Origin: Myxococcales bacterium | GTDB taxonomy: Bacteria > Myxococcota_A > Polyangia > Nannocystales > Nannocystaceae | Direction of reading: 5' to 3' | Assembly (NCBI GenBank): GCA_020633295.1 | Contig: JACKDW010000006.1 | Location: forward strand, 206,181-270,180 | Length of the DNA: 64,000 nucleotides | Shown: piece after piece, positions 4,321 through 56,153 of the stretch | Position numbering within the stretch: the first letter of the stretch is position 1 | Layout of the letters: every line of letters starts with the position of its first letter | Position numbers and translations under genes: made by a program | Notes under the pieces: generated by a model | Databases searched by the model: none | What the model was told of the DNA's origin: nothing | What the model saw: the letters and a program-made list of their open reading frames with translations, nothing else

Positions 4321-4450
4321 GACGACGAGCGCGTTCGCGCTTTCGCATGGTCGGTGCTGCTATCGAACATCTAAACTGGGGGGGGACCCAGGATGGCCTG
4401 GTCAGCTGTCCTGGGTTTCCGTTTTGGTTGGCGCTGGGTCCTCGCGCCAG

Positions 4451-5404
4451 CTAGCGCTCGTGCAGGTGGTCGTCGGGCTCGGGCACCCGATCCGCGAGCC
4501 GCCAGACCTGCTCGGCCGGCACCCGGTCCTCGATCCCCTCCTCGAGCTCGAGGCGCCCGGGGTCGTCGACGGGCAACGGCAGACGCGCGGCGTCGAGCAC
4601 GAGGTGGGCCCGCAGGGCGCACTGGGGCCCCAGCGGCATCGCGTGCAGCGCCGGCGCCCAGCCGTCCCTGCCAACTACAGCTGGCTCGAGGTGCAGGCGC
4701 CCGTCGCAGCGCGGGCACGGGATCTTGTGGTCCTGCTCGCCGCGCCACAGCGTGATCAGCGGCGGGTCGCCGCGGCCGTGCACGCGGCGGGCCTCGGACC
4801 ACCAGCGCGCGTCGAAGCGGTACACGCCGGGCAGCGCGTCCGCCGGGAGGATCCGCGCGCAGCCCTCGGTCCCGAGCAGCCAGCGCGCCGCCAGGTAGTA
4901 GGCCGGCGCCTGCCGGCCCTCGTGCTCACGTGTCTCAACGAACAGCAACGGGTGCTCGAAGTGGGGATCGAGCGACCACGAGCGCGCCAGCTCCTCGCGC
5001 GCGGCCCCGGCGAGCCGCCAGAACCGGTGCCCGACGACGACCCGCGTCAACCGATCGACGAACACGAACAGGACGTTCGAGAGCTTGCGCCACGGGTCGA
5101 TGGAGAGATCGCAGACCTTGAGCTTGTCGCACACGAGCCGCCCGGAGCGCCGCCGCCACACCGACACGAGCTTCAGCTCGATGCGGTCCTCCCAGTCGAG
5201 CACCGCGTCGCCGTCGTGGGGCTCGAGCCCGAGGTGCCACTGCAGCGCGTTGCCGTGGCGCCCCCGCGAGCGACGGCGCGTCACCAAGCGGGCCGCCGGG
5301 CCGAGCGGCAGCCCGAGCGCGGCCTCGGCGAGCGCCTCGAGGTACGCGCAGCGCCGCGCGGGCGCGTCGCGCCCAGGCGGCGGGTGACGTATCGGCATGC
5401 GCAC
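4451..5404 (-). CDS. Hypothetical protein (317 aa). Possible PD-(D/E)xK-like motif (HDGDAVLDWEDRIELKLV) and Cys-pair CPRCDGRL.
   Basis: Long ORF with protein-like composition (K, I, F, W present, unlike the Arg/Ala-rich artefact frames). Sits immediately downstream of the small lipoprotein gene. Confidence 0.45.
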   Translation of the reverse strand: MRMPIRHPPPGRDAPARRCAYLEALAEAALGLPLGPAARLVTRRRSRGRHGNALQWHLGLEPHDGDAVLDWEDRIELKLVSVWRRRSGRLVCDKLKVCDLSIDPWRKLSNVLFVFVDRLTRVVVGHRFWRLAGAAREELARSWSLDPHFEHPLLFVETREHEGRQAPAYYLAARWLLGTEGCARILPADALPGVYRFDARWWSEARRVHGRGDPPLITLWRGEQDHKIPCPRCDGRLHLEPAVVGRDGWAPALHAMPLGPQCALRAHLVLDAARLPLPVDDPGRLELEEGIEDRVPAEQVWRLADRVPEPDDHLHER

Positions 5405-5706: not shown

Positions 5707-6180
5707 TCATGCCGTGCCCGCGACGGCTTTGAGGATGGTCTCGCGGATCTGGTTCGCGGTCGCGTAGTCCGGGCAGTAGCTCAGCGCCGGGTCTCGGCTT
5801 GACAACGCACGAAACCGCCGCTCTTCGCTCGCGAAGTCATACGAGAGGATCACCGGCCCGCGGAAGCCCGCGTCGCGCAGCGCTCGCAGGATGAACATGC
5901 CCTGGTTGTCCTGCTGAAAGCTGCGCGCGCGCGCGACGTCCCCGTTGAAGCGCGCCGTCAGGGACACGAGGTCGCCGAGCAGCGCCTCGACCGGGGTGCG
6001 ATCGAAGCGCATGTCGAGGTACACGACGTCGGGCCGCTGGCTCCGCGCGAGCGCGCAGGCCTGCTCGCCGCTGCGCGCCTGGGTGTAGCGCATCCCCTCC
6101 GCGACGAAGGTCGACAGGTTCGTCAGGTACTCGTCGCCGTCCTCGACCACGAGCACGTGCACGGGTCGTCCGCTGCTCAT
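5707..6180 (-). CDS. Single-domain response regulator (receiver domain)
   Basis: VHVLVVEDGDEY...VVYLDMRF receiver motifs. Start ATG at 6178-6180 overlaps the TGA stop of the upstream kinase gene (ATGA). Confidence 0.75.
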   Translation of the reverse strand: MSSGRPVHVLVVEDGDEYLTNLSTFVAEGMRYTQARSGEQACALARSQRPDVVYLDMRFDRTPVEALLGDLVSLTARFNGDVARARSFQQDNQGMFILRALRDAGFRGPVILSYDFASEERRFRALSSRDPALSYCPDYATANQIRETILKAVAGTA

Positions 6181-9100
6181 GCCTCCTCCTCCTCGACCGT
6201 GAAGAACCTCAGCACGACCGCCTTCTGCCACCCCTGCTCGGGCTCGACCGCGATCGAGCCATCATAGCGCGACAGCAGGTCCGCGGTGATGCCCATGCCG
6301 CGCTCGACATAGCGCCCGCGCAGCATCTCGTTGCTGAGCTTCTCGGTCGACTGGTCCTTGATGCGGATCGCCAGCGTCGTCAGCCCCGTGATCTCGTCCA
6401 TCTCGTTGATCAGCTCCACGCCGAGGCGGATCGGCTTGGGCGCGTACAGGACGCTCGAGTGCAGCGAGTTGCGGATCACGTTCGTCAGGATGTCGTCGAG
6501 GTCCGTGCGGAACACCCGGATCGCCGCGCCCTCGCCCGTCACCTCGGGCGCCGCGACCTCGACGCCCGCGAACTGGGACTCGGTGACGACGAGCGCGTGC
6601 ACCTCCTGCAGCGTCTCACGATCGACGCGCACGATGCAGAGCGATCGGATCAGGCTGCTGAGGCGCTCGAACGCGTCGCGCCCGAGGATCTGCCCGCAGC
6701 GCAGCAGGCGCTTGGACCAGTCGAGCTTCCGCGACGCGCTCGCGTTGTGCTGCAGCTCGCTGAGGCCGCGCAGCGACTCGAACGCGCGGATCATCTCGCG
6801 GAAGATCGGGTCCTTGCGGTGGAGGTTGAGCGTGACGCCGTGGCTGCGCGCGACTTTCTCGAGCTCGTCGACGTAGCCGAGGAAGCGCCCGTAGATGCCC
6901 TGATCCCGGGTTGAGCGCTCGCGCTCGGCGCTCGCGCGCCCGCGCCCGCGTCGACGCCGAGATGGCTCTCCGAACAGGCGCCGCGCGACGATCGACGCGC
7001 GGTTCTCCGCGCCCGGCTCGTCGACCTCGAGCGCGTGCCCGACATCGCTCAAGAACGCGGTGTTGTGCTTGAGGATCTCGTGGCGGATCAGGCTCAGGAT
7101 CCGCGCGATCTCGGGGAAGCTCGTCGGCGCGCGCTCGAGCAGCTGGCTCAGCGACGCGCCGCGGAAGCGCCGGTAGATCCGCAGCGCCGGCAGCGAGATC
7201 AGCAGGAGCCCGAGCGCGCTCGCGAGGATGTAGATCTGCAGGAACCAGGCGTCGAGGTCGTCGCGCAGCTCGAGCGCGACGTCCCAGTGAAGGTCGAAGT
7301 CGCTCGCCTCCTGGAAGTACAGGTCGAGCTGCTCCGACGCGCCGACCAGGCGGTACTTCTCGAGCAGCAGCTGCGCGACCAGGAAGCGCCCGATCGTCGA
7401 GCCGAGCTCGGCCGCGCGCTGGAGGTGTGGGAGCGCCTCGTCGGGCAGCTCCTTGCGCAGCAGCAGCCCCAGGCGCTCGTGGACCTCGCGCTGGTCCTCC
7501 TTGAGCTGCAGCGAGCGCTCCCAGAACGAGCGCGCGTCGCCGGGGCGGTTGTCCGCGGACGCGACCTTCGCCAGCTCGTTGAGGACCACGACCTCGCCGG
7601 GGAACTTCTTCAGGGCGCGCCGCAGGATCTTGTCGGCCTGCGACCAGTCGCCGTCGTCGCCGACGCGCAGGTAGGCCTCGTTGATCATCCGCTGCAGCTC
7701 GGGCTCGAGGCGGCGGAGGTCGCTCGGCGGCGCGAGCGGGATCGCGGGCTCCTCCTCGCGCAGGCGGAAGTCGAGGTTGCGCAGCGCCTCGGCGGCGCGC
7801 GCGTAGTCGGGGTGATCCGACGACACCTCCTCGAGGAAGCGACGGTAGTGCACGCGCGCGCGCTCGCGGTTCGTCCGCGCGTACAGCTCGCCCAGGAACA
7901 GGCGCAGCTGATGCAGATCCGGGCGCAGCTCGAGCGCCTTCTCGAGGTGCTCGATCGCGGCGCGGTCCTCGGTCGGCGAGAGGCGCTTGGCGTAGATCAG
8001 CCCGAGGCGCATGTGCGCCTCGTAGTCGAAGCGATCGAGCCGTATCGCCATCCGCAGCTCGTGCACCGCGTCGGCGAAGCGCTCCTGGCGGGCGTAGACG
8101 AGCCCCTGCACGTAGCGCGCGCGCTGAAACCACGGCGAGTCCTTGATCGTGCGCTGCAGCTCGGACTCGGCGGTCACCAGATCGTTGCGCTTGATCGCCT
8201 CGACCGCGCGATCGAAGCTCGCCTGCGCCTCCGGCGTCGGGCGCCCGCCCTGCTCCTTCTCGATCGTCGCGAGCTCGAGCTCGAGCTGAAGATCCTCGAC
8301 GGCCTTGCGCGCGCGCTGCGAGAGCGGGTGCCCCGGGTACGCGCTGATCAGCTGCGTGTAGACGCTGATCGCCTTGGCCGTCTCGCCGCGATCCTGATAA
8401 CTCCCCGCGAGCCGGCTGAGCGCCTCCGCCTGGGGCGTCCTGCCGTCGCGCGTACACTCCTCGCGGTAGCGCTCGATGTCGCCGATCGCCTCGTCGCGCA
8501 GCGCCTGGGCCTCGCGCGTCGAGCCCAGCGACTCCGCGCGCTCGAGCCGGAGCTTGGCCAGCGTGAAGCGGATGTCGTCGGGGCGCCCCGGCGTCTCGGG
8601 GTCCTCCTCGGCCATCTCGACCGCGAGGTTGAGGCGCTCGTCCTGGTAGCGCTCCCCGCACTCAGCCATCCACGCGAACACGTTCGCGCGCTCCTCGAGC
8701 CACAGCCCGCGCGGATCGTAGGTCCGCAGCATCTTGAGATCCGCGATCGCGCGCCGCGGGCAGCTGCGCCGCTTCGGCTTGGTGTAGTGCAGGTGCGCGC
8801 GCCCGCGCAGCGCCCCCGGATCCCCGCGCTGGAGCTTGAGCGCCGACGAGTACTCGCGGATCGCCTCGTCGACGCGCCCCTCGCGTTCGAAGCGCTGCGC
8901 GCGGCTGAGGTGAATGTCGAACTCGAGCGCGCGCATCTCCGCCGGGTCGCCGTCGGGCACGTCGAGCCCGTCGGTGTCGCCGTCCTCGTCGTCGGTGTCG
9001 GGGCCGGGCGGCCGCGGCAGCCCTGGGTCGCCCGCGCCGGCGCGGCGATCGAGCACGCCGGGGAGCGGGTCCTCGGCCGGGGCCCGGCGCGCCCACGCAG

Positions 9101-43928: not shown

Positions 43929-46745
43929 ATGGACGAGTGGGCCTGCACAAGGGGCCCGCCGCCCGCGATGCTCGCTCGACGTCCACACCCCAGCCTCGCG
44001 CTCGCCGCGTGCCTCACGGCGCTCACGGCCTGCGCGAGCTGGAAGCCCCTGCCCCTGCCCGCGCGCGACCTGACGCCGCAGCTCGCCGCGCTCGAGTCCG
44101 CGAGCGTCGACGAGCGCCTCGACAACGGCCTGCGCCTCGTGCTCGCGCCCGACGACCACGCCGCGCTCGCGCAGCTCGACGTGCGCGTCGAGGCCGGCGC
44201 CCGCGACGATCCGCCGGGCAAGGGCGGCCTGGCGCACGTCGTCGAGCACATGACCTTTGAGTACGACGTCGACGTCGACGGCGACGCCGAGCCCGCGACG
44301 CTGGGCGAGCGGCTCGAGGCGCTGAGCCTGTATCACAACGCGTACACCAGCGCGGACGTCACCCACTACACGACCACGGGCCTCGCGGCGGACGTCGAGC
44401 GCCTGCTCGCGCTCGAGGTCGCGCGCCTGCGCGCCGACTGCGAGGCGCTCGACGCGGCCCGCTTCACGCGCGAGCTGACGGTGGTCGCCAACGAGCTGCG
44501 CCAGCGCGCCGGCGACCGCGAGCAGTACCTCGAGCGCGCGCTGACAGCTGCAGCCTTCCCCGAGGGACATCCGTACCGCGACCCGCCGGCGGACGACGAG
44601 CTCGAGCTCGCCGCGATCACGCAGGCGGACGTGTGCGCCTTCGTGCGCTCGCGCTACACCCCCGCGAACATCACCGTGGTCATCACGGGCGGCTTCGATC
44701 CGGCGCGGGTGCGGGCGATCGCCCGGCGACAATTCGGCGCGCTTCGTCGCGCGAGCGCGGCTCCACGGTCGGCGCTGCGCGGTCACTCCGACGCCGCCGC
44801 GCCGCGCCGCCGCAGCGTGCGGGCGGCGGTCGATCGCGCGGGCGTGGCGGTGATCGCCGACATCCCTGACGACCCCGACACGCTCGAGCCGTCGCCGGCG
44901 CTGCACGTCGCGCTCGAGCTGCTCGAGCGCGAGCTCCACGAGCTCGCGCGCGCGCGCGCCGAGATCGCCGACACGCGCCTCGCGCTGCTCGGCGGCGCAG
45001 GCTCGCGCAAGCTCGCGCTCTACGCCGCGACCGCCGGGGACCGCGACGATGAGCTTCGCGCGGTCGAGCGCGCGCTCACCGAATTGCTCGACGCGTTCGC
45101 GGGCGACGACGACGACGGCGCGCTCGAGCACGCGCGCAAGCGCGTGCTGCTGGCGACGCTGCGGCGCGCGAGCCAGCAGCAGACGCGCGGCGCCCTGCTC
45201 GCGAACCTCGCGCGCGGCGGCGAGTCGCTCCGCGAACGCGCCGACGCGCTCGGCGAGACGCCGGCGAGCTCGCTGCCGCGCTGGCGCGGTCAACCCCGCG
45301 ACGTCGTGTGGCTGCGCCCGTCGGGCGAGGATCCGACGCCGCGCGCCGCCCCGCGCTTCCTCGCCGAGCTCGACGCGCCCGGCGAGCGCGACCCGATCGT
45401 CGACGGCGGCGCGCGCCTCGACGCGCGGGCGCGCTGGAGCCCCGCGCTCCGCGAATTCACGCTGGACAACGGCATGCGCGTGATCCTGGCGCCGACCGCC
45501 GGGCTCCCGCTCGTCGACCTCCGCCTGATCTTCGACGTCGGCTCGATCGACGCGCCGCGCGAGCAGCCGGCGCTCGCGCGCCTCGTCGCCGACTGGATCA
45601 CCCCCTACCGGAGCGGTATGGCAGGCGAGCTCTACAACACGTACTTCGACGCGGGCGCCGACGCGACCCGGGCGACCGCAACCGAGACCACCGAGTTCCG
45701 CGTCGTCGGGCTCACGAGCGAGCTCGACCACCTGGTCGCGGGGCTCAGCACCTTCACCGCCGACGGCGTGTTCAGCGAGGAGCACGTCGAGGGCGAGCGC
45801 AAGGTGCTGCGCGCGCAGCTCGGGCGCCGCGACGTCGAGGGTCGCGTGCGCGCCGAGCTCGAGCTCAACGCGGCGGTGTTCGGCGACGCGCACCCCTACG
45901 CCCGCCGCCGCGAGCCCGCGCCGGCGCAGCTCGACGCGCTCACCGAGGCCGCGCTGCGCCGCTTCAAGCGGACGCACTACCGCGCCGCGTCGGCGAGCCT
46001 GATCATCGCGGGGCGCTTCAGCCCGGCGCTCGCCGAGGCCCACATCCGCGCCCGCTTCGACCGCGACTCGCTCTCGCGGCGACTCGAGCGCTGGGACCAC
46101 GCGCCAGCGCGCGGCCCGAGGCCGCCGGTCGACGGCGCCCAGACGCGCCCGCGACACCTCGGGCTCGCCGAGGACGACGCGACCCAGACCACGATCTACG
46201 CGGCGCTGCCCATCCCCTCGCTGGCGGACGGTCAGCACGGCGCGCGCCTCGTGATGATCGAGCTGCTCAGCGAGGCGGTCGGGCGCCTGCGCGAGCAGCT
46301 CGGCGCGAGCTACGGCTTCCGGGCCTACCTCGAGGGCGACGCGGGCCCCGCGAGCGTCACGATCCAGGGTCAGGTCGATCCGCGGCGCGCCGGCGAGGCG
46401 CTGCGCGTGCTCGCCGAGAGCCTCGAGGGCGCGCGCGCCGACGCGACGCACGAGGGTCGCTTCGCCAGGGCGCGCCGCGCCGTGCTGCGCCGCCTGCTCG
46501 CGGACGCCGGCGACCCGACCACGCTCGCCAGTCAGCTCGCGTTCACGCTCCGTCACGAGCTGCCGCGCGACTACTTCGCCACCCTCGCCGGCGAGGTCGC
46601 GCGCCTGCAGCCCAGCGAGCTCGCCGAGCTCACGCGCGTCGAGCTCGACCGCGCGCGCCTCAGCACGCTCTGCATCGGCGCCCGCGACGACGTGGAGACC
46701 GCCTACCGCGAGGCCGGCGTCGACGCGATTCACTGGGTCGAGTAG
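43929..46745 (+). CDS. Tandem M16-family (pitrilysin/insulinase) zinc peptidase lipoprotein with two M16 units. Likely true start at 43968 (MLARRPHPSLALAACLTALTAC).
   Basis: HxxEH zinc motif HVVEHMTFE. A second inactive-type M16 half. 938 aa. Confidence 0.8.
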   Translation: MDEWACTRGPPPAMLARRPHPSLALAACLTALTACASWKPLPLPARDLTPQLAALESASVDERLDNGLRLVLAPDDHAALAQLDVRVEAGARDDPPGKGGLAHVVEHMTFEYDVDVDGDAEPATLGERLEALSLYHNAYTSADVTHYTTTGLAADVERLLALEVARLRADCEALDAARFTRELTVVANELRQRAGDREQYLERALTAAAFPEGHPYRDPPADDELELAAITQADVCAFVRSRYTPANITVVITGGFDPARVRAIARRQFGALRRASAAPRSALRGHSDAAAPRRRSVRAAVDRAGVAVIADIPDDPDTLEPSPALHVALELLERELHELARARAEIADTRLALLGGAGSRKLALYAATAGDRDDELRAVERALTELLDAFAGDDDDGALEHARKRVLLATLRRASQQQTRGALLANLARGGESLRERADALGETPASSLPRWRGQPRDVVWLRPSGEDPTPRAAPRFLAELDAPGERDPIVDGGARLDARARWSPALREFTLDNGMRVILAPTAGLPLVDLRLIFDVGSIDAPREQPALARLVADWITPYRSGMAGELYNTYFDAGADATRATATETTEFRVVGLTSELDHLVAGLSTFTADGVFSEEHVEGERKVLRAQLGRRDVEGRVRAELELNAAVFGDAHPYARRREPAPAQLDALTEAALRRFKRTHYRAASASLIIAGRFSPALAEAHIRARFDRDSLSRRLERWDHAPARGPRPPVDGAQTRPRHLGLAEDDATQTTIYAALPIPSLADGQHGARLVMIELLSEAVGRLREQLGASYGFRAYLEGDAGPASVTIQGQVDPRRAGEALRVLAESLEGARADATHEGRFARARRAVLRRLLADAGDPTTLASQLAFTLRHELPRDYFATLAGEVARLQPSELAELTRVELDRARLSTLCIGARDDVETAYREAGVDAIHWVE

Positions 46746-46806
46746 TCGAGCGTCGAGTCGTCGAGCGTCGAGTCGTCGAGTCGTCGAGTCGTCGAGTCGT
46801 CAAGTA
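46738..46806. repeat. Intergenic microsatellite (GTCGAGY)n, ~9 copies, between convergent peptidase and methyltransferase genes
   Basis: Read directly: gtcgagcgtcgagtcgtcgagcgtcgagtcgtcgagtcgtcgagtcgtcgagtcgtcaag. Confidence 0.9.
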
Positions 46807-46819: not shown

Positions 46820-47560
46820 CTACGGCGTCCTGCGAAACCGCAGGAAGTAGTTCTCGCGCAGCGTCCCCGCGCGCAGCGCGACCGGGCCCTCGAGCGCGAA
46901 GCCGGCCGCCTCGAGCTCGCCGACGACCTCGCGCTCGCCCGCGCGGACATGCTCGAGCAGCCAGGCCGCGCTCTCCCCCTCCACGCGGTCGTAGTCGATC
47001 AAGTACAGGAGTCCCCCCGGCCGCAGCGCCGCGTGGATCTCCGCCAGGTACGCGCGCGGGTACTCGATGTGGTGATACGCGTCGCTGGTGAACACGACGT
47101 CGACGGAGCCCGCCGCCAGCGACGGCGAGCGCTCGGTCGCCTGCACCGTCGTGACGACCTCGGCGACGCCCTGCGCCGCCGCCTGGGCCCGGATGTGGGC
47201 GAGGAAGTGCGGCATCAAGTCGACCGCGAACACGCGCCCGGCGGGCCCCACGGCCTTCGCGAGCAGCATCGTGAACAGCCCCGTGCCCGCGCCGATGTCC
47301 GCGACCGCGACCCCGGGCTGGAGCGCGAGCGCCTCGACGATCGCGTGCCGGTGATCGAAGACCTCGCGCCCCTCGCGTTCAAACCGCCGCCGCCACGGGC
47401 GGATCGTCGCCTGCTCGAAGTAGCTGTCGTTGATCCCCGGGTGCACGCTGGCCTCCGGCGTCGCGTCCGCGGCCTCGCCCGCCCGCGCGACGCCGGCGTC
47501 CTCCGTCGGCGCGTGGGCCACGGCCGCGTGCGCCGGCGCGCCCAGGCTGGGCGCGCGCGC
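46820..47560 (-). CDS. Class I SAM-dependent methyltransferase domain (Methyltransf_11/25-like). 5' end and start codon unresolved (see frameshift finding).
   Basis: VADIGAGTGLFTMLLAKAV (motif I)...VDVVFTSDAYHH...PGGLLYLIDY. No ATG in frame upstream of the domain within ORF 46820..48844. Confidence 0.55.
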   Translation of the reverse strand, partial: ARAPSLGAPAHAAVAHAPTEDAGVARAGEAADATPEASVHPGINDSYFEQATIRPWRRRFEREGREVFDHRHAIVEALALQPGVAVADIGAGTGLFTMLLAKAVGPAGRVFAVDLMPHFLAHIRAQAAAQGVAEVVTTVQATERSPSLAAGSVDVVFTSDAYHHIEYPRAYLAEIHAALRPGGLLYLIDYDRVEGESAAWLLEHVRAGEREVVGELEAAGFALEGPVALRAGTLRENYFLRFRRTP

Positions 47561-47668
47561 GCGCGTCCGGGGTCGCCGGCGCCTCCACCCTCGCGGCCGG
47601 GATCGCGCAGGCCGTGATACACAGGAGCGCGCCGACGAGCTCGCGGGCGCGCGCGGGAGACCGGTGAA

Positions 47669-49060
47669 TTGCGATCCGCACGACGCACGCACGCTACCAC
47701 CTCCACCCCACACGCACGCGACATCGCGCCGCAGCGCCGTCGCGCGTCGTCCCTCGCGCTCGTGTCCGCGCTCACCCTGTGCACGCACGCCGCGTGCGCC
47801 CCGGTCGCGCGCGCCCCGAACCACGAGCACGCCGTGAAGCCCGATCGCGACCACGACGCCCACGATCCCGCCGCGCCGCGTGAGCCCGCCGCGACCCTCG
47901 AGCTCGTCGAGAGCTGGCCGCTCGAGACCCGCCTCGCGCAGCCCGACCTCGTCGACGCCGCGCGCGCGTGGGTGGAGATGATCGACGGCGCCGAGACGAC
48001 CATCGACCTCGCCGAGTTCTACGGCGCGACCGTCGAGGGCGGCGCGCTCGAGCCGGTGATCGAGGCGCTCGAGCGCGCCGCCGCGCGCGGCGTCACGATC
48101 CGCGCGCTGTTCGACCGCAGCTTCCACGAGAAGATGCCCGCGGTCCCCGACCGCCTCGCCGCGATCGCCGGCGTCGACGTCCGGCTCATCGACGGCGCGC
48201 GCTACGGCGAGCGCGGGGTCCTGCACGCCAAGTACTTCGTCGTCGATCGCCGCGCGCTGTTCCTCGGCAGCCAGAACTTCGACTGGCGGGCGCTCGAGCA
48301 CATCCTCGAGCTCGGCGTGCGCCTGCGCCACGACGGCCTCGCGCGCCGCTTGACCTGGCTGTTTGAGCACGACTGGGCGCTCGCCGGCGGCGCTGACCCG
48401 ACGGGGGCGCGCGCGACCGCGGACCGCGCGGCCGCGAGCCCGCCGCCCGACGGCGACGACGCGGCGCGCTTCGGCGACGAGCCGCTCGCGCTCGAGCTGC
48501 TCGCCAGCCCGCGCGACGCCCTCGAGCGCCCCGGCGACTGGGACCTCCCACGGCTCGTCGCCGCCATCGACGGCGCGCGCGCGGACGTGCGCGTGCAGCT
48601 GCTCAGCTACGGCACCGAGCCCCCGGACGGCGACGACGCGGCGCGCTTCGCCGCGCTCGACGACGCGCTGCGCCGCGCGGCCGCCCGCGGCGTGCGGACG
48701 CGGCTGCTCGTCGCCCACTGGAGCACGGCCGAGGACCGCCTCGCGCCGCTGCGCGCGCTCGAGCGCGCCGCCAACCTCGAGGTCGCGTTCGTCACGATCC
48801 CGCCCCACAGCGGCGGCTTCATCCCCTTCGCGCGGGTCGCCCACAGCAAGTACCTCGTCGTCGACGAGGCGCTCGCGTGGATCGGCACGAGCAACTGGTC
48901 GCGGGAGTACTTCTACGGCAGCCGCAACGTCGGGCTGCTCGTCCGCGGCGGCGCGGTCGCGCGGCGGCTCGCGCGGCTCTACGATGACCTCTGGGACAGC
49001 TCGTACACCACCCGCCTCGACCCGGACGCGAGCTACCCGCCGCCGCGCGTCGCCGAGTGA
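47669..49060 (+). CDS. Phospholipase D-family protein with two HKD motifs (cardiolipin synthase/PLD-like), predicted secreted lipoprotein
   Basis: HAKYFVVDRRALFLGSQNFD and HSKYLVVDEALAWIGTSNWS (HxKxxxxD x2). Signal LALVSALTLCTHAAC. Exact start uncertain. Confidence 0.75.
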   Translation: MRSARRTHATTSTPHARDIAPQRRRASSLALVSALTLCTHAACAPVARAPNHEHAVKPDRDHDAHDPAAPREPAATLELVESWPLETRLAQPDLVDAARAWVEMIDGAETTIDLAEFYGATVEGGALEPVIEALERAAARGVTIRALFDRSFHEKMPAVPDRLAAIAGVDVRLIDGARYGERGVLHAKYFVVDRRALFLGSQNFDWRALEHILELGVRLRHDGLARRLTWLFEHDWALAGGADPTGARATADRAAASPPPDGDDAARFGDEPLALELLASPRDALERPGDWDLPRLVAAIDGARADVRVQLLSYGTEPPDGDDAARFAALDDALRRAAARGVRTRLLVAHWSTAEDRLAPLRALERAANLEVAFVTIPPHSGGFIPFARVAHSKYLVVDEALAWIGTSNWSREYFYGSRNVGLLVRGGAVARRLARLYDDLWDSSYTTRLDPDASYPPPRVAE

Positions 49061-49536
49061 CGCGCGCGCGCGACCTCGCGCGCCCTCGCGCGCCCGCGCG
49101 CGCCAGGGACCCGAGACACGCCGCGACGCGCTCGCGCTACACTCTCGACGTGGTGCTGCTCCTCGAGACGCTCGCGCTCGACCCGGCCATCAAGTCCCTG
49201 TGTCGCGAGGTCCTGGCGACCAGCGCGGACTACCGCGAGGCCGCCGCGCGCCTCGACATCACCCGCGCCGCGCTCGGGCGCTACCTCGAGAAGTACGGGC
49301 TCTCCTGGCGTCCGGAGCGACCGGACGCGCGAGACAGCGAGCCCGATCCCGGCGACGACGCGCTCGTGCTCGAGGTCCAGAGCCTCGCCGAGCTCGAGCG
49401 CACGCTGTGCATCCGCGCGCTCGCTCGCGCCGGCGAGATCCCGGGCGCCGCGGCGCTGCTCGGGCTCAGCGAGCACGCGCTGCGGCGGCGCATCATCGTC
49501 CACCGGATCAACCCCGAGATGCTGCCGGATCGCTGA
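49057..49536 (+). CDS. Small regulatory protein with two Fis-type HTH (HTH_8-like) motifs
   Basis: SADYREAAARLDITRAALGRYLEKYGL and GEIPGAAALLGLSEHALRRRII. GTGA overlap with the PLD stop. Start uncertain. Confidence 0.45.
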   Translation: MTRARDLARPRAPARARDPRHAATRSRYTLDVVLLLETLALDPAIKSLCREVLATSADYREAAARLDITRAALGRYLEKYGLSWRPERPDARDSEPDPGDDALVLEVQSLAELERTLCIRALARAGEIPGAAALLGLSEHALRRRIIVHRINPEMLPDR

Positions 49537-49616
49537 GCGCGAGCCCGTCGACGTACCCGATTCAAGGGACAGGTGCGCGATGAAATCGAATCACGGGCTC
49601 GCGCGTCTATGCCTCC

Positions 49617-50651
49617 ATGCGCACGCGCACGCCCGCCGCCCGCCGTCGACGCGCGGACGCACGCGCCAGCCTGCTCGGCCTCGGGCTGATATGCTCCGCC
49701 GGCGTCGCCTGTGATCCGCTGCTCCGGGCGCCGCGCGCCGAGCAGCCCGAGATGTCGCCCACGTCCCCAGCGCGCGCCCCCGCCCCGGCCCCCGCGAGTG
49801 ATCCCGTCGCGCCCGCGGAGGATCCCGCCGACACCGCGCCCGCCCTCGCGGTCGATGACGCCCCCGACGCCGAGCCCGCTGAGGCCGCGTCCAGCGAGCC
49901 CGCTCCGGAATTCGCTCCGGGATCCGCTCCGGAAGCCGCGCCCGAGGAGCCCGGCCCCGCGCGCCCCGAGCTTCGCCCGTTCACGCGCTGGGACGCCGGC
50001 AGCGGGCTGTCCGCGAAGGAGCGTGATCGCGGCGCGCACGCGCGTCGCCAGGACACCGTCCGGGGCCTGTTCACCGCGGCCGGGCTCAGCTTCCCGCCGC
50101 GCCAGCTGCTGATGCGCGCGTTCAAGGCCGAGCGCGAGCTCGAGGTCTGGGCGACCGACCGTCGCGGCGATCCCTTCACCCACGTCACGACGTACAAGAT
50201 CTGCGCGGCCTCCGGCGTCGCGGGCCCCAAGAAAGCCGAGGGCGACGGCCAGGTCCCCGAGGGCTTCTACACCATCAACCTGTTTAACCCGCGCAGCAGC
50301 TACCACCTGTCGATGCGCGTCAGCTACCCCAACCGCCGCGATCGCGCGCTCCGCTACACCGGCAGCGCCATCATGATCCACGGCGACTGCGTGTCGATCG
50401 GCTGCCTCGCCATGAGCGACGAGCGCATCGAGGAGCTGTGGGTGATGAACAAGGCGCTGCCCGAGGGAGAGCGCGCCGACGTGCACCTGTTCCCCGGCCG
50501 CGACCTCGCCGGCATGATCGAGCGCGCGCGCCCCCGCGACCCCGAACTCGCCGCGTTCTGGACCACGCTCAAGCGGGGCAACGACGCCTTTGAAGCGAAC
50601 CATCAGCTCCCCGTGATCCGCGTCAAGGACGGCGCCTACACCGTCGAGTGA
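49617..50651 (+). CDS. L,D-transpeptidase-family protein (YkuD/YafK-like catalytic domain) with Pro/Ala/Glu-rich N-terminal linker
   Basis: Signal peptide. Catalytic motif IMIHGDCVSIGCLAMSD (His...Cys). Confidence 0.7.
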   Translation: MRTRTPAARRRRADARASLLGLGLICSAGVACDPLLRAPRAEQPEMSPTSPARAPAPAPASDPVAPAEDPADTAPALAVDDAPDAEPAEAASSEPAPEFAPGSAPEAAPEEPGPARPELRPFTRWDAGSGLSAKERDRGAHARRQDTVRGLFTAAGLSFPPRQLLMRAFKAERELEVWATDRRGDPFTHVTTYKICAASGVAGPKKAEGDGQVPEGFYTINLFNPRSSYHLSMRVSYPNRRDRALRYTGSAIMIHGDCVSIGCLAMSDERIEELWVMNKALPEGERADVHLFPGRDLAGMIERARPRDPELAAFWTTLKRGNDAFEANHQLPVIRVKDGAYTVE

Positions 50652-50762
50652 CCGCGCGCGAGGCGACGTGGCGCGACCGCGACGCCAGCGCGATGAACCG
50701 CGGGCGGCACGCGTCGCCGTCGACGGGTGAACGCAGGACAACGACGCGGTAACATCGTTGGT

Positions 50763-52058
50763 ATGGCCCCGGCCCCAGCACCGAACCCGAAGTCCCCTGC
50801 GCTCGCGACCCTCGTCGCGCGCGGCTACTTCGAGCAGGCATCGGACCTCGACGCGATCGACGACGCGCTCTCGAGCGGCATGGTGACCTTCTACATCGGC
50901 TTCGATCCGACCGCGCGCTCGCTGCACGCCGGCAACCTCCTGACCATCATGGCGATGCGCGTGCTCCAGCGGCACGGGCACCGGCCGATCTGCCTGCTCG
51001 GCGCCGGCACGGCGATGGTCGGCGACCCCTCGGGCAAGACCGAGATGCGCAAGATCCTCGATCAGGAGACCATCGCCGAGAACGCGGCCGCGTTCCGCGA
51101 GCAGTTCTCGCGCTTCCTGCACTTCGACCGCGGGCAGGCCAACGACGCGCTCCTGCTCAACAACGCCGACTGGCTGCTCGGCCTCAAGTACATCGAGTTC
51201 CTGCGCGATATCGGGCGTCACTTCACCGTCAACCGGATGGTCGCGGTGAAGACCTACCGCGACCGCCTCGACGCCGAGATCCCGCTCAGCTTCCTGGAGT
51301 TTAACTACCAGCTGCTCCAGGCCTACGACTTCTACCACCTGTCCCAAAGTTACGATTGCACGTTGCAGCTCGGCGGCAGCGATCAGTGGGGCAACATGAT
51401 CGCGGGCGTCGAGCTGATCCGCCGCATGCAGTGCGAGCGCGAGACCGGCGAGGCCGGCGCGACCTGCCTGACCTTCCCGCTGCTGACGACCGCCGACGGC
51501 CGCAAGATGGGGAAGAGCGAGCGCGGCGCCGTCTGGCTCTCGGGCGAGCTGCTCTCCCCCTTCGAGTACTACCAGTACTGGATCAACCGCGACGACCGCG
51601 ACGTCGGCCGCCTGCTGCGGCTCTACACCGAGATCCCGCTCGAGGAGATCGACGAGATCACGCAGGTCGAGGGCTCCGCGATGCGCGAGGCCACGCGTCG
51701 GCTCGCCTTCGAGGCCACGCGACTGCTGCACGGCGAGGAGGCCGCCGAGCAGGCCGAGACCGCGAGCCGGCAGGCCTTCGGCGGCGGCGGTGACTGGAGC
51801 GCCGTGCCCGAGCTCGCGCTCGACGTCGGCGAGATCACGCTCGTCGACCTGCTCGTTCACGAGCACGTGCAGGCCTTCAAGTCGAAGCGGGAGACGCGGA
51901 AGCGCGTCGAGGCCAACGCGGTCAAGATCAACGACGAGCCCTGCACCGATCCCAACCGCCTGCTGACCGCGCGAGACCAGGACGACCAGGGTCTGCGGAT
52001 CAAGGTCGGGAAAAAGCGCTTCCGCATTTGCCTCGTCGACTCGGAAGCCGCACCCTGA
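50763..52058 (+). CDS. tyrS: Tyrosine--tRNA ligase
   Basis: HIGH-region variant GFDPTARSLHAGNL. KMGKS motif (KMGKSE). C-terminal S4 domain. Start taken at MAPAPA (ORF begins 50727). Confidence 0.9.
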   Translation: MAPAPAPNPKSPALATLVARGYFEQASDLDAIDDALSSGMVTFYIGFDPTARSLHAGNLLTIMAMRVLQRHGHRPICLLGAGTAMVGDPSGKTEMRKILDQETIAENAAAFREQFSRFLHFDRGQANDALLLNNADWLLGLKYIEFLRDIGRHFTVNRMVAVKTYRDRLDAEIPLSFLEFNYQLLQAYDFYHLSQSYDCTLQLGGSDQWGNMIAGVELIRRMQCERETGEAGATCLTFPLLTTADGRKMGKSERGAVWLSGELLSPFEYYQYWINRDDRDVGRLLRLYTEIPLEEIDEITQVEGSAMREATRRLAFEATRLLHGEEAAEQAETASRQAFGGGGDWSAVPELALDVGEITLVDLLVHEHVQAFKSKRETRKRVEANAVKINDEPCTDPNRLLTARDQDDQGLRIKVGKKRFRICLVDSEAAP

Positions 52059-52103
52059 TCTCGAGCGTTCCATCCCCCACCCCCCGGGATTGTTCGTCGC
52101 CGA

Positions 52104-52523
52104 ATGACCGCGCCTGATCCCCCAACTCGGCTCTATGACGCGCTGTGCGAGCTCGACGTGCAGCCCGCCGACGTTCGCGGAGATCCGTCGGGCAAGACGT
52201 GGCTCCCGGACGAGCTGCGCGCGCTCGTCGAGGCCGACGAGCGCTGTCAAAAAGTCCTCGCCGAGTGGATCGACGAGGAGCTCGAGTTCTTCGACAGCGT
52301 AAAGCTCCGCCCCGACGCGCTCTTCACCGACCGCGTGGTCAAGGCGACCGAGCCCGAGCAGATCGCCGGCGCCGGCCTCGAGCCCGCGCGCCGCGGCCTC
52401 GTGCTCGCGGCCGCCTACGCGCTCGCGGCCGGCCTCGCGATCCTGTTCCTCCGCCAGCTGGTCACCGAGACATCTCTGCTCAGGCGGCTCGCCGAGCAGC
52501 TGCGCGGCCTCCTCGGCGGATAA
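52104..52523 (+). CDS. Hypothetical protein (139 aa) with C-terminal hydrophobic segment. 3' end is duplicated downstream.
   Basis: ORF co-directional with tyrS, 45 nt downstream. Confidence 0.4.
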   Translation: MTAPDPPTRLYDALCELDVQPADVRGDPSGKTWLPDELRALVEADERCQKVLAEWIDEELEFFDSVKLRPDALFTDRVVKATEPEQIAGAGLEPARRGLVLAAAYALAAGLAILFLRQLVTETSLLRRLAEQLRGLLGG

Positions 52524-52692
52524 CCTGCTCGTGTCGCCCGCGAGTCCCGCTCGGGCTCGCGGCCAGCCTCGCTCCCCGGTGCCTCCGCCAGCTGGTCACC
52601 GAGACATCTCTACTCAGCGGGCTCGCCGAGCAGCTTCGCGGCCTCCTCGGCGGCTAGCGTGCCCGTGTCGCCCGTGAGTCTACCTCGGGCTC
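52448..52692 (+). repeat. Tandem direct repeat, 2 x ~110 bp (period ~134 bp), ~90% identical. Copy 1 is the last 25 codons + stop + 35 nt of ORF 52104..52523.
   Basis: Read directly: cctccgccagctggtcaccgagacatctct[g/a]ctcag[gc/cg]ggctcgccgagcagct[g/t]cgcggcctcctcggcgg[ataa/ctag]c...gtgtcgcccg[c/t]gagtc... Confidence 0.85.
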
Positions 52693-52742
52693 CGGATGCC
52701 GAGCTCAGCGGTCTCCCGCGAGCGCCGCGCTCGAGCGCGCCC

Positions 52743-53816
52743 CTACCAGTCGTCGCGAAAACGCAGCACCTGCTCCCGCACGCGCCGAAACACCGCCGCG
52801 GTCGCTACCACGTCCTTGCGGTTGTAGGTCGCGATCATCTCGATGTCGCCGCGCGCGTAGGCCGGCGCGACTTGGGAGCCGTCCATCTCGTCCTTCGGGC
52901 TCGTGATCCCCAGCGACCAGCACACCATGTCGAGCGTCATCGGCCCGAGCGGCCGCCCCTGCGTCAGCACGCGGTAGAGATCGAGGTGGGGTCGCAGCGC
53001 GTAGGGGTTGCCCAGCAGATCGACGCGCGCCGGGATCCCGTGGACCAGGCTGCGCCCGACCAGAAACGGCACGTCGAAGGTGCGGCCGTTGTAGGTGATG
53101 ACGACCCCCGCGTGGGCCGCGAGCGCCCAGAACGCCTCGAGCAGCTCGGGCTCCGAGACCGGCTGCATCCACGGCGGGTACGCGGCGCGCTGGGCCTCAT
53201 CGTGCTCCGGCGGCGGGACCACGAGCACGCGCACGCCGTCGTCGGTCTCCGCGTCGGCCTCGCCGTAGGCGAGCGACACGACCTTGCCGAGCATCGGCGA
53301 CAGCCCCATCACCATGTCCTCGTCGCCGCCCTGTCGCTCCGCGTGGCGGTGAACGGCCTTGCGGATCGTCTCGGGCGCCGTCGCCAGCTCCGTCGCGGGC
53401 ACCGTCTCGATGTCGAACACGAGGTTCGCGCACAGCGAGTCGGCGACCTTCGGGTAGCCGGCTCCGAACACCCGGCCGGCGTCGTAGCCGGGCTCGCGCT
53501 CCGTCAGCGTCCGGATCCCCCGCACGTTCAGCTGCAGCGCGCCTTGATAGTGCTCGCTGCGAAACAGCAGCTTCACGACCGCGCCGCGCCGCAGGCCCGC
53601 GGCCGTCTGGATCGCCGCGCCGGCGTCGTCCCAGATCTTGCCCGCGACTGAACGTGTCTGATCAGCCAGCTCAAGATCCACGTAGGGTCGCCCGGCCCGC
53701 GTGCGCCCCTCACGGACATCGCGGACCGCCGCGAAGGCCGTCAAGAGCGGCGCCTCTTCGTCCTCGATCCGGTCGAGCGTGGCCACGAAGACCGGCTCTG
53801 GACGCCCGTTCGCCAT
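52743..53816 (-). CDS. Predicted 3'-5' exonuclease related to the exonuclease domain of family-B DNA polymerases (DEDDy; YprB/PF10108-like), with N-terminal OB-fold-like region
   Basis: Exo I FDIETVP, Exo II YNGRTFDVPFL, Exo III YNRKD. Start at the internal Met (MANGRPEP) of ORF 52743..53930. Confidence 0.7.
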   Translation of the reverse strand: MANGRPEPVFVATLDRIEDEEAPLLTAFAAVRDVREGRTRAGRPYVDLELADQTRSVAGKIWDDAGAAIQTAAGLRRGAVVKLLFRSEHYQGALQLNVRGIRTLTEREPGYDAGRVFGAGYPKVADSLCANLVFDIETVPATELATAPETIRKAVHRHAERQGGDEDMVMGLSPMLGKVVSLAYGEADAETDDGVRVLVVPPPEHDEAQRAAYPPWMQPVSEPELLEAFWALAAHAGVVITYNGRTFDVPFLVGRSLVHGIPARVDLLGNPYALRPHLDLYRVLTQGRPLGPMTLDMVCWSLGITSPKDEMDGSQVAPAYARGDIEMIATYNRKDVVATAAVFRRVREQVLRFRDDW

Positions 53817-53920
53817 GGGTGGAGCATAGCAGCCAGCGCGCGAACGAGCGCCGGTCTTCCTTGCATACACACGGACTGCCTGCGGGCCGCTCCCGGTGCG
53901 TCGCGAGAGCGCAGCCGTTC

Positions 53921-53958
53921 GAACGAACAAAGCCGCGACCGGAGACCGATCGCGGCTG
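53921..53958 (-). terminator. Hairpin AGCCGCGA-ccggagaccga-TCGCGGCT with a U-rich 3' side on the minus strand. Candidate terminator of the atp operon.
   Basis: Read directly, 30 nt downstream of the atpC stop. Confidence 0.35.
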
Positions 53959-53984
53959 CATGGTGGCCAGCGCGTCGAACGCGA

Positions 53985-54440
53985 CTACGCCTGCGCGGCC
54001 CGGAGCTGGGCCTCGAGCCAGGCCTGCTGATCGCTGAGCTTGCGGTGCTCCACGGCGTCGATGGAGCCGAACTCCTTCGACAGCTCCGCCGAGACGTCCT
54101 TGAGCTCCGACGTGGCGGCCGCCACGTCGACCTCGGCGGAGTCGAGCGCGCGCTCGGTGAGGATCACGACGCGCCCGTCGGCGGTCACCTCGAGGAAGCC
54201 CGTGCCGACCGCGACGCGGCGGTCGACGGCGCCGTCGCGGAAGCGCACCACGCCCGGGATCACCGGCGTGATGAAGGGGACGTGATCGGGGAGCACCCCG
54301 AGCTCGCCTTTGAGCCCCGGCGCGTCGACGCCGGGGACGTCGACGCTCACGCGGCGCTTCTTCGCCTTCTCGCCCTCGCGCAGCGGCAGCGCCGAGCCGT
54401 GCGGGGTGAGGATCTCGAGCGCGATGTTGGATGCGGCCAT
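53985..54440 (-). CDS. atpC: F1Fo ATP synthase epsilon subunit
   Basis: Size, position after atpD, conserved N-terminal beta-sandwich and C-terminal helices. Confidence 0.85.
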   Translation of the reverse strand: MAASNIALEILTPHGSALPLREGEKAKKRRVSVDVPGVDAPGLKGELGVLPDHVPFITPVIPGVVRFRDGAVDRRVAVGTGFLEVTADGRVVILTERALDSAEVDVAAATSELKDVSAELSKEFGSIDAVEHRKLSDQQAWLEAQLRAAQA

Positions 54441-54467
54441 AGCCTCGTACCTCTAGTCGCGGCCGGC

Positions 54468-56153
<1,686 letters not shown>

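What the first reader, a model, noticed from the sequence alone, without database searches (positions are those of the whole stretch)
47545..47685. Possible frameshift in a (GC)7 tract joining a lipoprotein signal peptide to a SAM-methyltransferase domain
The methyltransferase reading frame has no ATG for >300 codons upstream of its catalytic domain. In another frame, starting at 47681 (minus strand), there is a textbook lipoprotein signal peptide MRIAIHRSPARARELVGALLCITAC... The two frames meet exactly at a (GC)7 dinucleotide run (47551-47564). A 1- or 2-nt slip would fuse them into a ~310-aa lipoprotein methyltransferase. Alternatives: a sequencing/assembly indel, a phase-variable switch, or a GTG start (..AAVAHAP..) with the signal peptide being coincidental. 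The predicted start of the divergent PLD gene (47669) would overlap the signal-peptide ORF by 13 nt, so one of the two starts is probably mis-called.
Basis: seen in the sequence. Interest (0 to 1): 0.5.

Follow-up and report, generated by a model that had tools for sequence, protein, structure and literature searches.

The report
Frameshift-split exported methyltransferase gene
A gene for an exported (lipoprotein-type) SAM-dependent methyltransferase is split into two reading frames by a small insertion or deletion in a run of seven GC dinucleotides; this is an ordinary broken gene or assembly slip, not a new mechanism.

Summary
On the minus strand, a GTG-initiated ORF (47681) encodes a lipoprotein-type signal peptide (MRIAIHRSPARARELVGALLCITAC). 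The class I SAM-methyltransferase domain lies in the +1 frame with no usable upstream ATG. A codon-usage likelihood scan places the frame switch at 47567-47545, which is the (GC)7.5 tract (47551-47565). Adding one GC unit, or deleting 1 or 4 nt, gives one 286-287-aa ORF. Homologs settle what the gene should look like: 108 of 120 have a signal peptide before the conserved SVxPGIN core. All five apparently signal-less homologs I inspected, including the two syntenic orthologs, have the signal peptide in frame upstream, as does a cultured Paraliomyxa genome. The window copy is therefore the exception: one gene broken by an indel in the tract. It is the only broken frame in 64 kb. The tract is not special: there are five (GC)7 runs in the window, the others compatible with intact genes, and the closest ortholog has none at this site. 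Nothing supports a programmed frameshift or an evolved phase switch. I could not separate a genuine recent slippage mutation from an assembly indel. Contigs of the same strain exist in public metagenomes, but none spans the tract. Interest is low.

The parts
47551..47565 (.). Alternating GC tract, (GC)7.5. This is the site of the reading-frame break. In the restored gene it would encode Ala-Arg-Ala-Arg-Ala in the linker.
   Evidence: Sequence; TRF gives period 2, 7.5 copies, 100% matches; the likelihood interval for the frame switch is 47567-47545; the HMM coding segment of the MTase ends at 47564.
47607..47681 (-). Signal-peptide coding segment in frame A: GTG start, a positively charged n-region, the h-region LVGALLCITA, and lipobox-like ITA|C with Cys25.
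   Evidence: Kyte-Doolittle 10-residue maximum 2.63 and relaxed lipobox match at residue 25. Aligns with ortholog leaders and their Cys. The start region GTGCGGA(T/C)CGCAA is conserved in L001 DNA.
47379..47681 (-). The 100-aa frame-A ORF as it stands. Only the first ~43 codons (to the tract) look coding; the remainder is out-of-frame read-through of the MTase linker and core up to a chance stop.
   Evidence: ORF. Frame-A GC3 is 0.90 before the tract and 0.65-0.47 after it. Likelihood scan.
46820..47550 (-). Frame-B part of the gene: Pro/Ala-rich linker, conserved SVHPGIN...W..FEREGRE block, and class I SAM-methyltransferase domain (motif I DIGAGTG), through stop 46822-46820. It is intact, with no further lesions.
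   Evidence: Pfam Methyltransf_11 at 67.7 bits against a cutoff of 21.2, and Methyltransf_25, _12, _31, _23. 79% identical to P0001. All family-invariant residues are present. GC3 is 0.93-1.0.
47519..47521 (-). It would give a 233-aa leaderless protein.
   Evidence: no Shine-Dalgarno-like sequence in the 20 nt upstream. The aligned Val codon in L001 is GTC. No product of this form is on record.
47444..47456 (-). GGAGG (47456-47452), a 5-nt spacer, then in-frame GTG (47446-47444) at the Val of the conserved SVHPGIN block. This is the only internal start with a ribosome-binding-like motif, and it could give a 208-aa leaderless MTase from the broken allele. This is inference only.
   Evidence: Sequence. 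In L001 the same Val is GTC, so it is not a conserved start.
47669..49060 (+). Divergent PLD-family gene (two PLDc_2 domains) with its own lipoprotein-like leader. Its TTG start overlaps the MTase GTG start by 13 nt (47669-47681).
   Evidence: The same geometry occurs in L001 (PLD start 5833, MTase ORF start 5821). PLD synteny is also seen in L003.

Best explanation
This is one gene, not two. Ancestrally it encoded a ~287-aa exported class I SAM-dependent methyltransferase. Its parts are a Sec-type leader with a lipobox cysteine (residues 1-25), a Pro/Ala-rich linker, and a conserved SVxPGIN..W..FE.EGRE block followed by the Rossmann-fold methyltransferase domain.

In this sequence the reading frame is broken inside the alternating GC run at 47551-47565, which lies in the linker and would encode Ala-Arg-Ala-Arg-Ala. 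The simplest event is loss of one GC unit, (GC)8 to (GC)7, by strand slippage at the repeat. I judge it most likely to be a genuine, recent mutation in the organism or population sampled.

Consequences, all inferred: translation from GTG 47681 makes a 100-aa product consisting of the leader plus out-of-frame tail. The methyltransferase domain has lost its export signal and its start codon. It is either not made or made at low level as a cytoplasmic, leaderless protein from an internal GTG; 47446 has a GGAGG 5 nt upstream. The allele is therefore a null or mislocalised version of an exported enzyme.

Shown here: the frame break, its position, and the single-ORF state of all relatives examined. 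Inferred: the direction and size of the indel, that it exists in the DNA rather than only in the assembly, and the fate of the protein.

The confidence given (0.55) is for the full statement, including 'genuine mutation'. The narrower claim, one gene split by an indel in the tract whatever the origin of the indel, I hold at about 0.9.
For: The frame switch is localised to the tract (95% interval 47567-47545); the switch model scores 80.5 against 33.0 log units for a single frame. GC3 changes frame at the tract, and the HMM coding segment ends at 47564.

Adding GC, or deleting 1 or 4 nt, yields one uninterrupted 286-287-aa ORF.

The syntenic orthologs carry leader and MTase in one ORF: L001 5821-6681 (286 aa) and L003 5848-6684 (278 aa). 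So do L045, L046, L047 and Paraliomyxa miuraensis L017. Of 120 homologs, 108 have a hydrophobic leader and 42 also have a lipobox-like Cys. The window's frame-A peptide is homologous to the L001 leader (46% over 46 aa, E = 1e-5, Cys aligned), and the start-codon region is conserved at DNA level.

For a genuine mutation rather than an artefact: every other same-strand frame change in the 64-kb window is a normal gene boundary with a stop within 27 nt. Three other (GC)7 runs read through intact ORFs and the fourth lies 16 nt upstream of an intact gene's ATG. The assembly therefore shows no general or tract-specific indel problem. Strains of this population do differ by repeat-flanked indels: there is a 15-nt indel at 49801 between TCCCG direct repeats, relative to L048.

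For a recent event: both halves are otherwise intact, with all family-invariant residues present and GC3 near 1.0.
Against: No reads and no independent assembly across the tract could be obtained, so an assembly or consensus indel would give exactly the same picture. Contigs of the same strain (L049 and L050, 100% identical; L005 and L048, 99.6-99.7%) all stop short of the MTase. No product of this locus is in the protein database in any frame.

The complete absence of secondary decay fits an artefact as well as it fits a very recent mutation.

The linker is too diverged from L001 to place the indel by alignment. The ancestral tract length, (GC)8 or some other state, is therefore inferred and not observed.
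Confidence: 0.55

Rival explanations
1. Assembly or consensus error. The organism's DNA carries an in-frame tract, most simply (GC)8, and the intact 287-aa lipoprotein methyltransferase. The 2-nt loss arose during sequencing, assembly or polishing at a GC-rich dinucleotide repeat.
For: Both halves of the gene are pristine, as expected if nothing is wrong in vivo. The break sits in a low-complexity, very GC-rich repeat. The window appears to derive from a metagenomic population: identical 2.3-2.5-kb contigs occur in two metagenome assemblies. In such data a consensus can be built from few or mixed reads.
Against: It is the only frame break in 64 kb. The four other (GC)7 runs are compatible with intact genes, so there is no sign of a systematic error mode. 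Neither point excludes a single error.
Confidence: 0.32
2. Phase variation. The GC run is a contingency repeat whose length changes reversibly, (GC)7 to (GC)8, by slipped-strand mispairing. This would switch export or expression of the methyltransferase on and off within the population.
For: The repeat lies in the 5' coding region, and a one-unit gain restores the frame. That is the classical geometry of repeat-mediated switches. The gene encodes a cell-envelope protein, the class most often phase-varied (established knowledge of contingency loci in Neisseria, Haemophilus and Helicobacter). Both halves are intact.
Against: The tract is short, at 7 units. (GC)7 is common in this genome simply because GCG and CGC are the preferred Ala and Arg codons: there are 5 in 64 kb, the others compatible with intact genes. 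The closest ortholog has no repeat at this position. None of the other family members inspected is out of frame. No length variant was found in any collection.
Confidence: 0.07
3. No frameshift matters. The methyltransferase is a normal cytoplasmic protein that starts at an internal GTG (47521 or 47446), and the upstream signal-peptide-like ORF is coincidental.
For: In-frame GTGs exist, and 47446 has a GGAGG 5 nt upstream. Gene callers annotated several homologs (P0001, P0004, P0074, P0112, P0021) without leaders.
Against: All five of those homologs have an in-frame leader just upstream of the called start, so they are start mis-calls. The window's frame-A segment has coding-type codon usage (+9.5 against -35 and -14 for the other frames). 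It is also homologous to the L001 leader. The internal GTGs are GTC in L001.
Confidence: 0.04
4. Programmed recoding. Ribosomes shift +1 (or -2) at or near the GC run and synthesise the full lipoprotein methyltransferase from the sequence as it stands.
For: Only the geometry: two overlapping frames of one gene, with the 0-frame open for 170 nt beyond the junction.
Against: Relatives encode the protein in one frame, so the arrangement is not conserved. There is no in-frame stop or other pause element at the junction; the frame-A stop is at 47381-47379. A GC dinucleotide run is not a known slippery sequence for ribosomes or for RNA polymerase (established knowledge of prfB-type +1 sites and A/T-run transcriptional slippage).
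Confidence: 0.01

Closest known systems
Intact orthologs: GCA_030430565.1 contig JAUIKS010000006.1 (L001, ORF 5821-6681, 286 aa) and GCA_964621785.1 contig CAZUPD010000056.1 (L003, ORF 5848-6684, 278 aa)
   Same: Same gene in the same neighbourhood: divergent PLD, then MTase, M16 peptidase (present in L001, absent in L003), ZapA and RF1. The MTase core is 79% (L001) and 60% (L003) identical. Both use a GTG start and have a leader with a Cys followed by a Pro/Ala linker. L001 also shows the 13-nt overlap with the PLD start.
   Different: Leader and enzyme are in one reading frame. L001 has no GC repeat at the corresponding linker position.
Frameshift pseudogenes or variants generated by strand slippage at short tandem repeats. 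Alternating (GC)n runs are known hot spots for 2-bp deletions in E. coli (from my own knowledge of Freund, Bichara and Fuchs, PNAS 1989; not checked here).
   Same: The break maps to a perfect dinucleotide repeat, and the frame offset equals a change of one repeat unit.
   Different: The event itself (direction, size, whether it occurred in vivo) was not observed. No other degenerative lesions are present.
Repeat-mediated phase-variable (contingency) genes of Neisseria, Haemophilus, Helicobacter and Campylobacter
   Same: A repeat in the 5' coding region of an envelope-protein gene, where unit gain or loss toggles the frame.
   Different: No length variation was seen. The tract is short, not conserved in the ortholog, and of a type abundant in intact genes of this genome. 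The lineage (Myxococcota-like) has no described system of this type, to my knowledge.
Generic class I SAM-dependent methyltransferases (Pfam Methyltransf_11/25; nearest solved chain 3dh0_A, a 'SAM dependent methyltransferase' of unknown function)
   Same: Rossmann-fold MTase domain with motif I GxGxG.
   Different: This family has an N-terminal export signal and its own conserved blocks (SVxPGIN, DxYHHxE, HVRAG). No curated NCBIfam model reaches its cutoff. PDB matches are weak, the best at E = 4e-13.

Membership tests
Class I SAM-dependent methyltransferase (Methyltransf_11/25 superfamily) | Significant match to the Pfam domain models above their gathering scores | tested here: met
   Methyltransf_11 at 67.7 bits (cutoff 21.2), Methyltransf_25 at 65.4 (27), Methyltransf_12 at 59.5 (30).
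Class I SAM-dependent methyltransferase (Methyltransf_11/25 superfamily) | SAM-binding motif I (acidic residue-x-G-x-G-x-G) and an acidic residue at the end of strand 2 | tested here: met
   D129-I-G131-A-G133-T-G135 and D155 are invariant across the 13-sequence alignment. Assigning them to SAM contacts is inference from the superfamily.
Class I SAM-dependent methyltransferase (Methyltransf_11/25 superfamily) | Methyl-transfer activity and a defined substrate | not testable with these tools
   No NCBIfam equivalog reaches its cutoff. PDB hits are generic.
Bacterial lipoprotein precursor (Lgt/LspA substrate) | Positively charged n-region followed by a hydrophobic h-region within the first ~35 residues | tested here: met
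   R2, R7, R11 and R13, then LVGALLCITA. Kyte-Doolittle 10-residue maximum is 2.63 at residue 18.
Bacterial lipoprotein precursor (Lgt/LspA substrate) | Lipobox ending in the lipidated Cys | tested here: inconclusive
   I-T-A-C25 fits the relaxed pattern [LVI][ASTVI][GAS]C. The stricter PROSITE-type core regex fails because of Cys21. L003 passes both patterns and L001 passes neither. SignalP and LipoP are not available here.
Bacterial lipoprotein precursor (Lgt/LspA substrate) | Leader is continuous with a mature domain in one reading frame | tested here: not met
   In the window the leader is in frame A and the enzyme in frame B. The feature is met in all relatives examined.
Frameshifted gene (pseudogene or sequencing frameshift) | Two adjacent same-strand frames that each match one part of a protein encoded by a single ORF in relatives | tested here: met
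Frameshifted gene (pseudogene or sequencing frameshift) | The lesion is present in the organism's DNA (read or PCR support) | not testable with these tools
   No reads are available. No independent assembly spans the tract.
Frameshifted gene (pseudogene or sequencing frameshift) | Additional degenerative changes expected of an old pseudogene | tested here: not met
   No stops, all invariant residues kept, GC3 0.93-1.0. The event is therefore recent, reversible or artefactual.
Repeat-mediated phase-variable (contingency) locus | A simple repeat placed so that unit changes alter the reading frame or the promoter | tested here: met
   One added GC unit restores the frame.
Repeat-mediated phase-variable (contingency) locus | Observed tract-length variation among cells, strains or reads | not testable with these tools
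   A flank-anchored pattern with free tract length found nothing. No near-identical locus exists in the genome or metagenome collections.
Repeat-mediated phase-variable (contingency) locus | The tract stands out from the genome background and/or is maintained in relatives | tested here: not met
   There are five (GC)7 runs in 64 kb, the others compatible with intact genes. The tract is absent at the homologous site in L001.
Programmed +1 ribosomal frameshift (prfB type) | The two-frame arrangement and the shift site are conserved in orthologs | tested here: not met
   All relatives examined have a single ORF.
Programmed +1 ribosomal frameshift (prfB type) | A 0-frame stop or hungry codon at the shift site with an upstream stimulator | tested here: not met
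   The frame-A stop lies 170 nt past the tract, at 47381-47379. By reading the sequence, no stop occurs at the junction.

The most novel reading that the evidence does not exclude
The GC run could be a working on/off (or export/no-export) switch. In the (GC)8 state the cell would make a lipid-anchored, exported methyltransferase. In the (GC)7 state it would make none, or a leaderless cytoplasmic form from GTG 47446, which has its own GGAGG. That would be a dinucleotide-repeat phase switch in a Myxococcota-like, very GC-rich, free-living bacterium, acting on a member of a large uncharacterised family of exported SAM-dependent methyltransferases.
Probability: 0.06. Interest if true: 0.5.

Novelty: already known. 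Interest (0 to 1): 0.17.

Why it matters
The main value is for annotation. This locus should be annotated as one frameshifted gene, or corrected after inspecting reads. It should not be called as a 100-aa hypothetical protein plus a leaderless methyltransferase.

The comparison also shows that gene callers routinely truncate this family. Five of five 'signal-less' homologs actually have an in-frame leader. The family is therefore exported almost without exception. That is worth knowing, because an exported SAM-dependent enzyme raises the question of where its cofactor comes from.

The frameshift itself is an ordinary event at a slippage-prone repeat and opens no new question.

Tried and rejected
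(1) Placing the indel by DNA alignment with the closest ortholog. The start region and the core align, but the linker is too diverged. I used a codon-usage likelihood scan instead.

(2) Codon-position distribution of window-versus-L001 substitutions in the leader segment. The counts were 5/11/4 for positions 1/2/3, which is uninformative for a fast-evolving leader in a GC3-saturated genome.

(3) Finding an independent assembly across the tract.
- An exact look-up of RF1 gave a 1.9-kb contig (L005, 99.7% identical) that stops at 44074.
- An exact look-up of TyrRS gave five contigs, two of them 100% identical to the window. The longest (L048) starts at 48671, inside the PLD gene.
- Exact look-ups of the PLD product and of the 233-aa, 290-aa and 100-aa forms found nothing.
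- A flank-anchored DNA pattern with free tract length found nothing in the metagenomes.
- Protein-guided scans of genomes and metagenomes found only distant relatives, at most 57% identity.
- A junction-focused protein search found nothing above 76% identity.

(4) Recurrent frameshifting in the family. Rejected: all inspected relatives have a single ORF.

(5) A second tract-associated break at the (GC)7 at 3525. Rejected: the tract lies 16 nt upstream of the ATG of an intact 432-aa gene.

(6) A generally error-prone assembly. Rejected: all other frame changes are gene boundaries.

(7) A functional name for the enzyme. NCBIfam, PDB and one literature search gave nothing specific.

(8) An RNA element at the locus. 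There are no Rfam matches anywhere in the window.

(9) PLD-MTase linkage beyond the close clade. tblastn of the window's PLD and M16 proteins against the loci held at that point (L001-L044) found PLD only in L001-L004 and M16 only in L001, L002 and L005, all from the close relatives.
Full report
**What is in the sequence**

The window is 71.5% G+C. On the minus strand, a 100-aa ORF runs from GTG 47681 to a stop at 47381-47379. It begins MRIAIHRSPARARELVGALLCITACAIPAARVEAP....

One base out of register (+1) lies a frame that is open for 674 codons and ends at stop 46822-46820. Its last ~210 codons are a class I SAM-dependent methyltransferase: Pfam Methyltransf_11 scores 67.7 bits against a cutoff of 21.2, and Methyltransf_25, _12, _31 and _23 also match.

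That frame has no ATG upstream of 47269, which is already inside the domain. Upstream there are only GTGs, at 47446, 47521, 47692, 47713 and 47788.

Between the two coding parts lies a perfect alternating run at 47551-47565, which TRF reports as period 2, 7.5 copies.

Adding one GC unit, or removing 1 or 4 nt, joins the two frames into one 286-287-aa ORF. A -2 or +1 change does not.

The divergent PLD-family gene starts at TTG 47669 and overlaps the GTG by 13 nt.

**Is the frame change real, and where is it?**

Third-position G+C is 0.90 in the leader frame and 0.74 in the enzyme frame between 47681 and 47565. It is 1.00 in the enzyme frame and 0.65 in the leader frame just after the tract.

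I trained codon usage on 23 long, high-GC3 open reading frames of the window and scored every possible switch point. The posterior is concentrated on 47567-47545 (95% interval). The one-switch model scores 80.5 log units, against 33.0 for reading everything in the enzyme frame. Upstream of the tract, the leader frame scores +9.5 while the other two frames score -35 and -14.

A six-frame HMM segmentation ends the enzyme's coding segment at 47564.

The PLD gene does not cover 47565-47668, so the coding signal in the leader frame is not an antisense echo.

**What the gene should look like**

The hypothetical fusion finds more than 1000 homologs of 210-290 aa. Of the best 120, 108 have a hydrophobic h-region ahead of the conserved SVxPGIN..(Y)..W..FE.EGRE block, and 42 of these also have a lipobox-like Cys. 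The leader is followed by a variable Pro/Ala-rich linker.

The closest relative is P0001 (79% identical), and another is P0004 (60%). Both were annotated without a leader, but both lie in the same neighbourhood as the window gene: divergent PLD, then MTase, M16 peptidase (L001 only), ZapA and RF1. Read from an upstream GTG, both are single ORFs with a leader:
- L001 5821-6681, 286 aa, ...ALALPCTISCAVPAATV...
- L003 5848-6684, 278 aa...LLFAVALAACAGPSKP...

Three more 'leaderless' homologs (P0074, P0112, P0021) likewise have an in-frame leader upstream of the called start. So does the gene in the cultured Paraliomyxa miuraensis genome (L017).

The window's leader peptide aligns with that of L001 at 46% identity over 46 residues (pairwise E = 1e-5), with the Cys and the following CA(I/V)PAA aligned. 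The DNA around the GTG start is also conserved.

The internal GTGs that could serve as alternative starts in the window are GTC in L001.

Conclusion: the window carries one gene for an exported, probably lipid-anchored, methyltransferase, broken by an indel in the GC run.

**How special is the tract?**

Not very. GCGCGCGCGCGCGC occurs five times in the window against 0.74 expected from dinucleotide-preserving shuffles. GCG (Ala) and CGC (Arg) are favoured codons, and such runs encode Ala-Arg repeats.

Three of the other runs lie inside intact ORFs, for example ...HELARARAEIAD... in the M16 peptidase. The fourth lies 16 nt upstream of the ATG of an intact 432-aa gene.

The closest ortholog has no repeat at the corresponding linker position.

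**Real mutation, artefact or switch?**

Every other same-strand frame change in the 64 kb is a normal gene boundary, with an in-frame stop within 27 nt. The assembly is therefore not error-riddled, and this is its only broken gene.

Both halves of the gene are otherwise perfect. That fits a very recent mutation, a reversible one, or an artefact equally well.

I tried hard to find an independent read-out of the tract. The same strain is present in public data:
- L049 and L050 are 100% identical to the window over 2.3-2.5 kb.
- L005, L048, L051 and L052 are 99.6-99.9% identical.

None of these contigs reaches 47551-47565. No protein product of this locus is in the protein collection in any frame. 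Pattern and protein scans of the genome and metagenome collections found no near-identical locus.

One relevant side result: the strain in L048 differs from the window by a 15-nt indel at 49801, flanked by TCCCG direct repeats. Slippage-type indels therefore do segregate in this population.

Weighing a clean assembly against the usual frequency of frameshifted genes in large genomes, my estimates are:
- genuine recent slippage mutation, about 0.55;
- assembly or consensus indel, about 0.32;
- dedicated phase switch, about 0.07, because the tract is short, common, not conserved, and no variants were seen;
- coincidental leader with an internal start, about 0.04, contradicted by codon usage and homology;
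- programmed recoding, about 0.01, because the arrangement is not conserved and there is no shift-site feature.

**Mechanistic consequence (inferred)**

From the sequence as it stands, initiation at GTG 47681 yields a leader fused to 57 out-of-frame residues. The enzyme domain lacks a leader and a good start codon. GTG 47446 has a GGAGG 5 nt upstream and would give a 208-aa cytoplasmic protein that retains the whole conserved core. Whether that start is used is unknown.

**Comparison with known things**

The enzyme is a member of the class I SAM-methyltransferase superfamily (domain and motif I tests met). It belongs to no curated equivalog family. It has no close solved structure; the best match is 3dh0_A at E = 4e-13.

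The leader meets a relaxed lipobox definition but not a strict one. SPase II processing could not be tested here.

The lesion is an ordinary repeat-associated frameshift. It fails the tests for a contingency locus that I could apply (tract distinctiveness and conservation), and it fails both tests for a prfB-type programmed shift.

**Verdict**

The phenomenon is ordinary, and interest is low. The PLD-start side claim is not supported, because the same 13-nt overlap of divergent starts is seen in L001.

Noticed in passing
window 46737-46805: A tandem array of an 8-mer (GTCGAGTC, 8.9 copies, 90% matches) fills the gap between the convergent stops of the M16 peptidase (46745) and the methyltransferase (46820), and overlaps the last codons of M16. 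In the closest relative L001 the two called genes are only 3 nt apart (6681 and 6685), so the array looks like a lineage-specific expansion.
   Followed up: partly
window 47669-47681; L001 5821-5833: The divergent PLD (TTG) and methyltransferase (GTG) start codons overlap by 13 nt, and the same geometry recurs in the 80%-identical relative L001. Each gene's promoter and ribosome-binding region must therefore lie inside the other's leader-coding sequence. In L003 the two genes are 459 nt apart by the called starts.
   Followed up: partly
homologs P0001-P0120; window 46820-47681: This methyltransferase belongs to a large family (more than 1000 hits in Myxococcota, Verrucomicrobiota and others) that is almost always preceded by a signal peptide, often with a lipobox. 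Family-specific invariant blocks are SVxPGIN, DxYHHxE and HVRAG. No curated family model and no close solved structure exist. An exported SAM-dependent enzyme raises the question of where its cofactor comes from.
   Followed up: partly
L001 6001, L003 6001, L045 1087, L046 254, L047 270: Gene callers truncated the N-terminus in five of five 'leaderless' family members. Each has an in-frame leader with a Cys 50-60 codons upstream of the called start. In L001 and L003 the full ORF starts at a GTG.
   Followed up: yes
window 43929-46745, 46820-47681, 47669-49060: Three adjacent genes all begin with lipoprotein-like leaders: the M16 peptidase (...SLALAACLTALTAC...), the methyltransferase, and the PLD-family protein (...LALVSALTLC...). 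This suggests a small cluster of envelope enzymes. PLD-MTase adjacency is seen only in the closest relatives, L001-L004.
   Followed up: partly
window 3525, 15905, 29100, 44946, 47551: (GC)7 runs are about 7-fold enriched over dinucleotide-shuffle expectation (5 against 0.74). Those inside genes encode Ala-Arg repeats. The one at 3525 lies 16 nt upstream of the ATG of a DUF21/CBS-type gene.
   Followed up: yes
window 48671-54739 versus L048; window 49725-52280 versus L049 and L050: The same strain (100% identity over 2.3-2.5 kb) occurs in metagenome assemblies ERZ27309200 and ERZ28655768. A 99.6%-identical strain occurs in the NCBI MAG GCA_020431325.1, and it differs by a 15-nt insertion at window 49801 flanked by TCCCG direct repeats. 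These data sets are where reads across the GC tract could be found.
   Followed up: partly
window 3601-4454: An 854-nt stretch with no coding signal in any frame by my codon-usage HMM, between two minus-strand genes. No Rfam family matches there or anywhere else in the window.
   Followed up: no
window 52411-52695: Two adjacent ~150-nt segments are about 85% identical to each other (an internal direct repeat). This showed up as secondary BLAST alignments between L048 and the window, near a 139-aa gene that has no Pfam match in L048.
   Followed up: no
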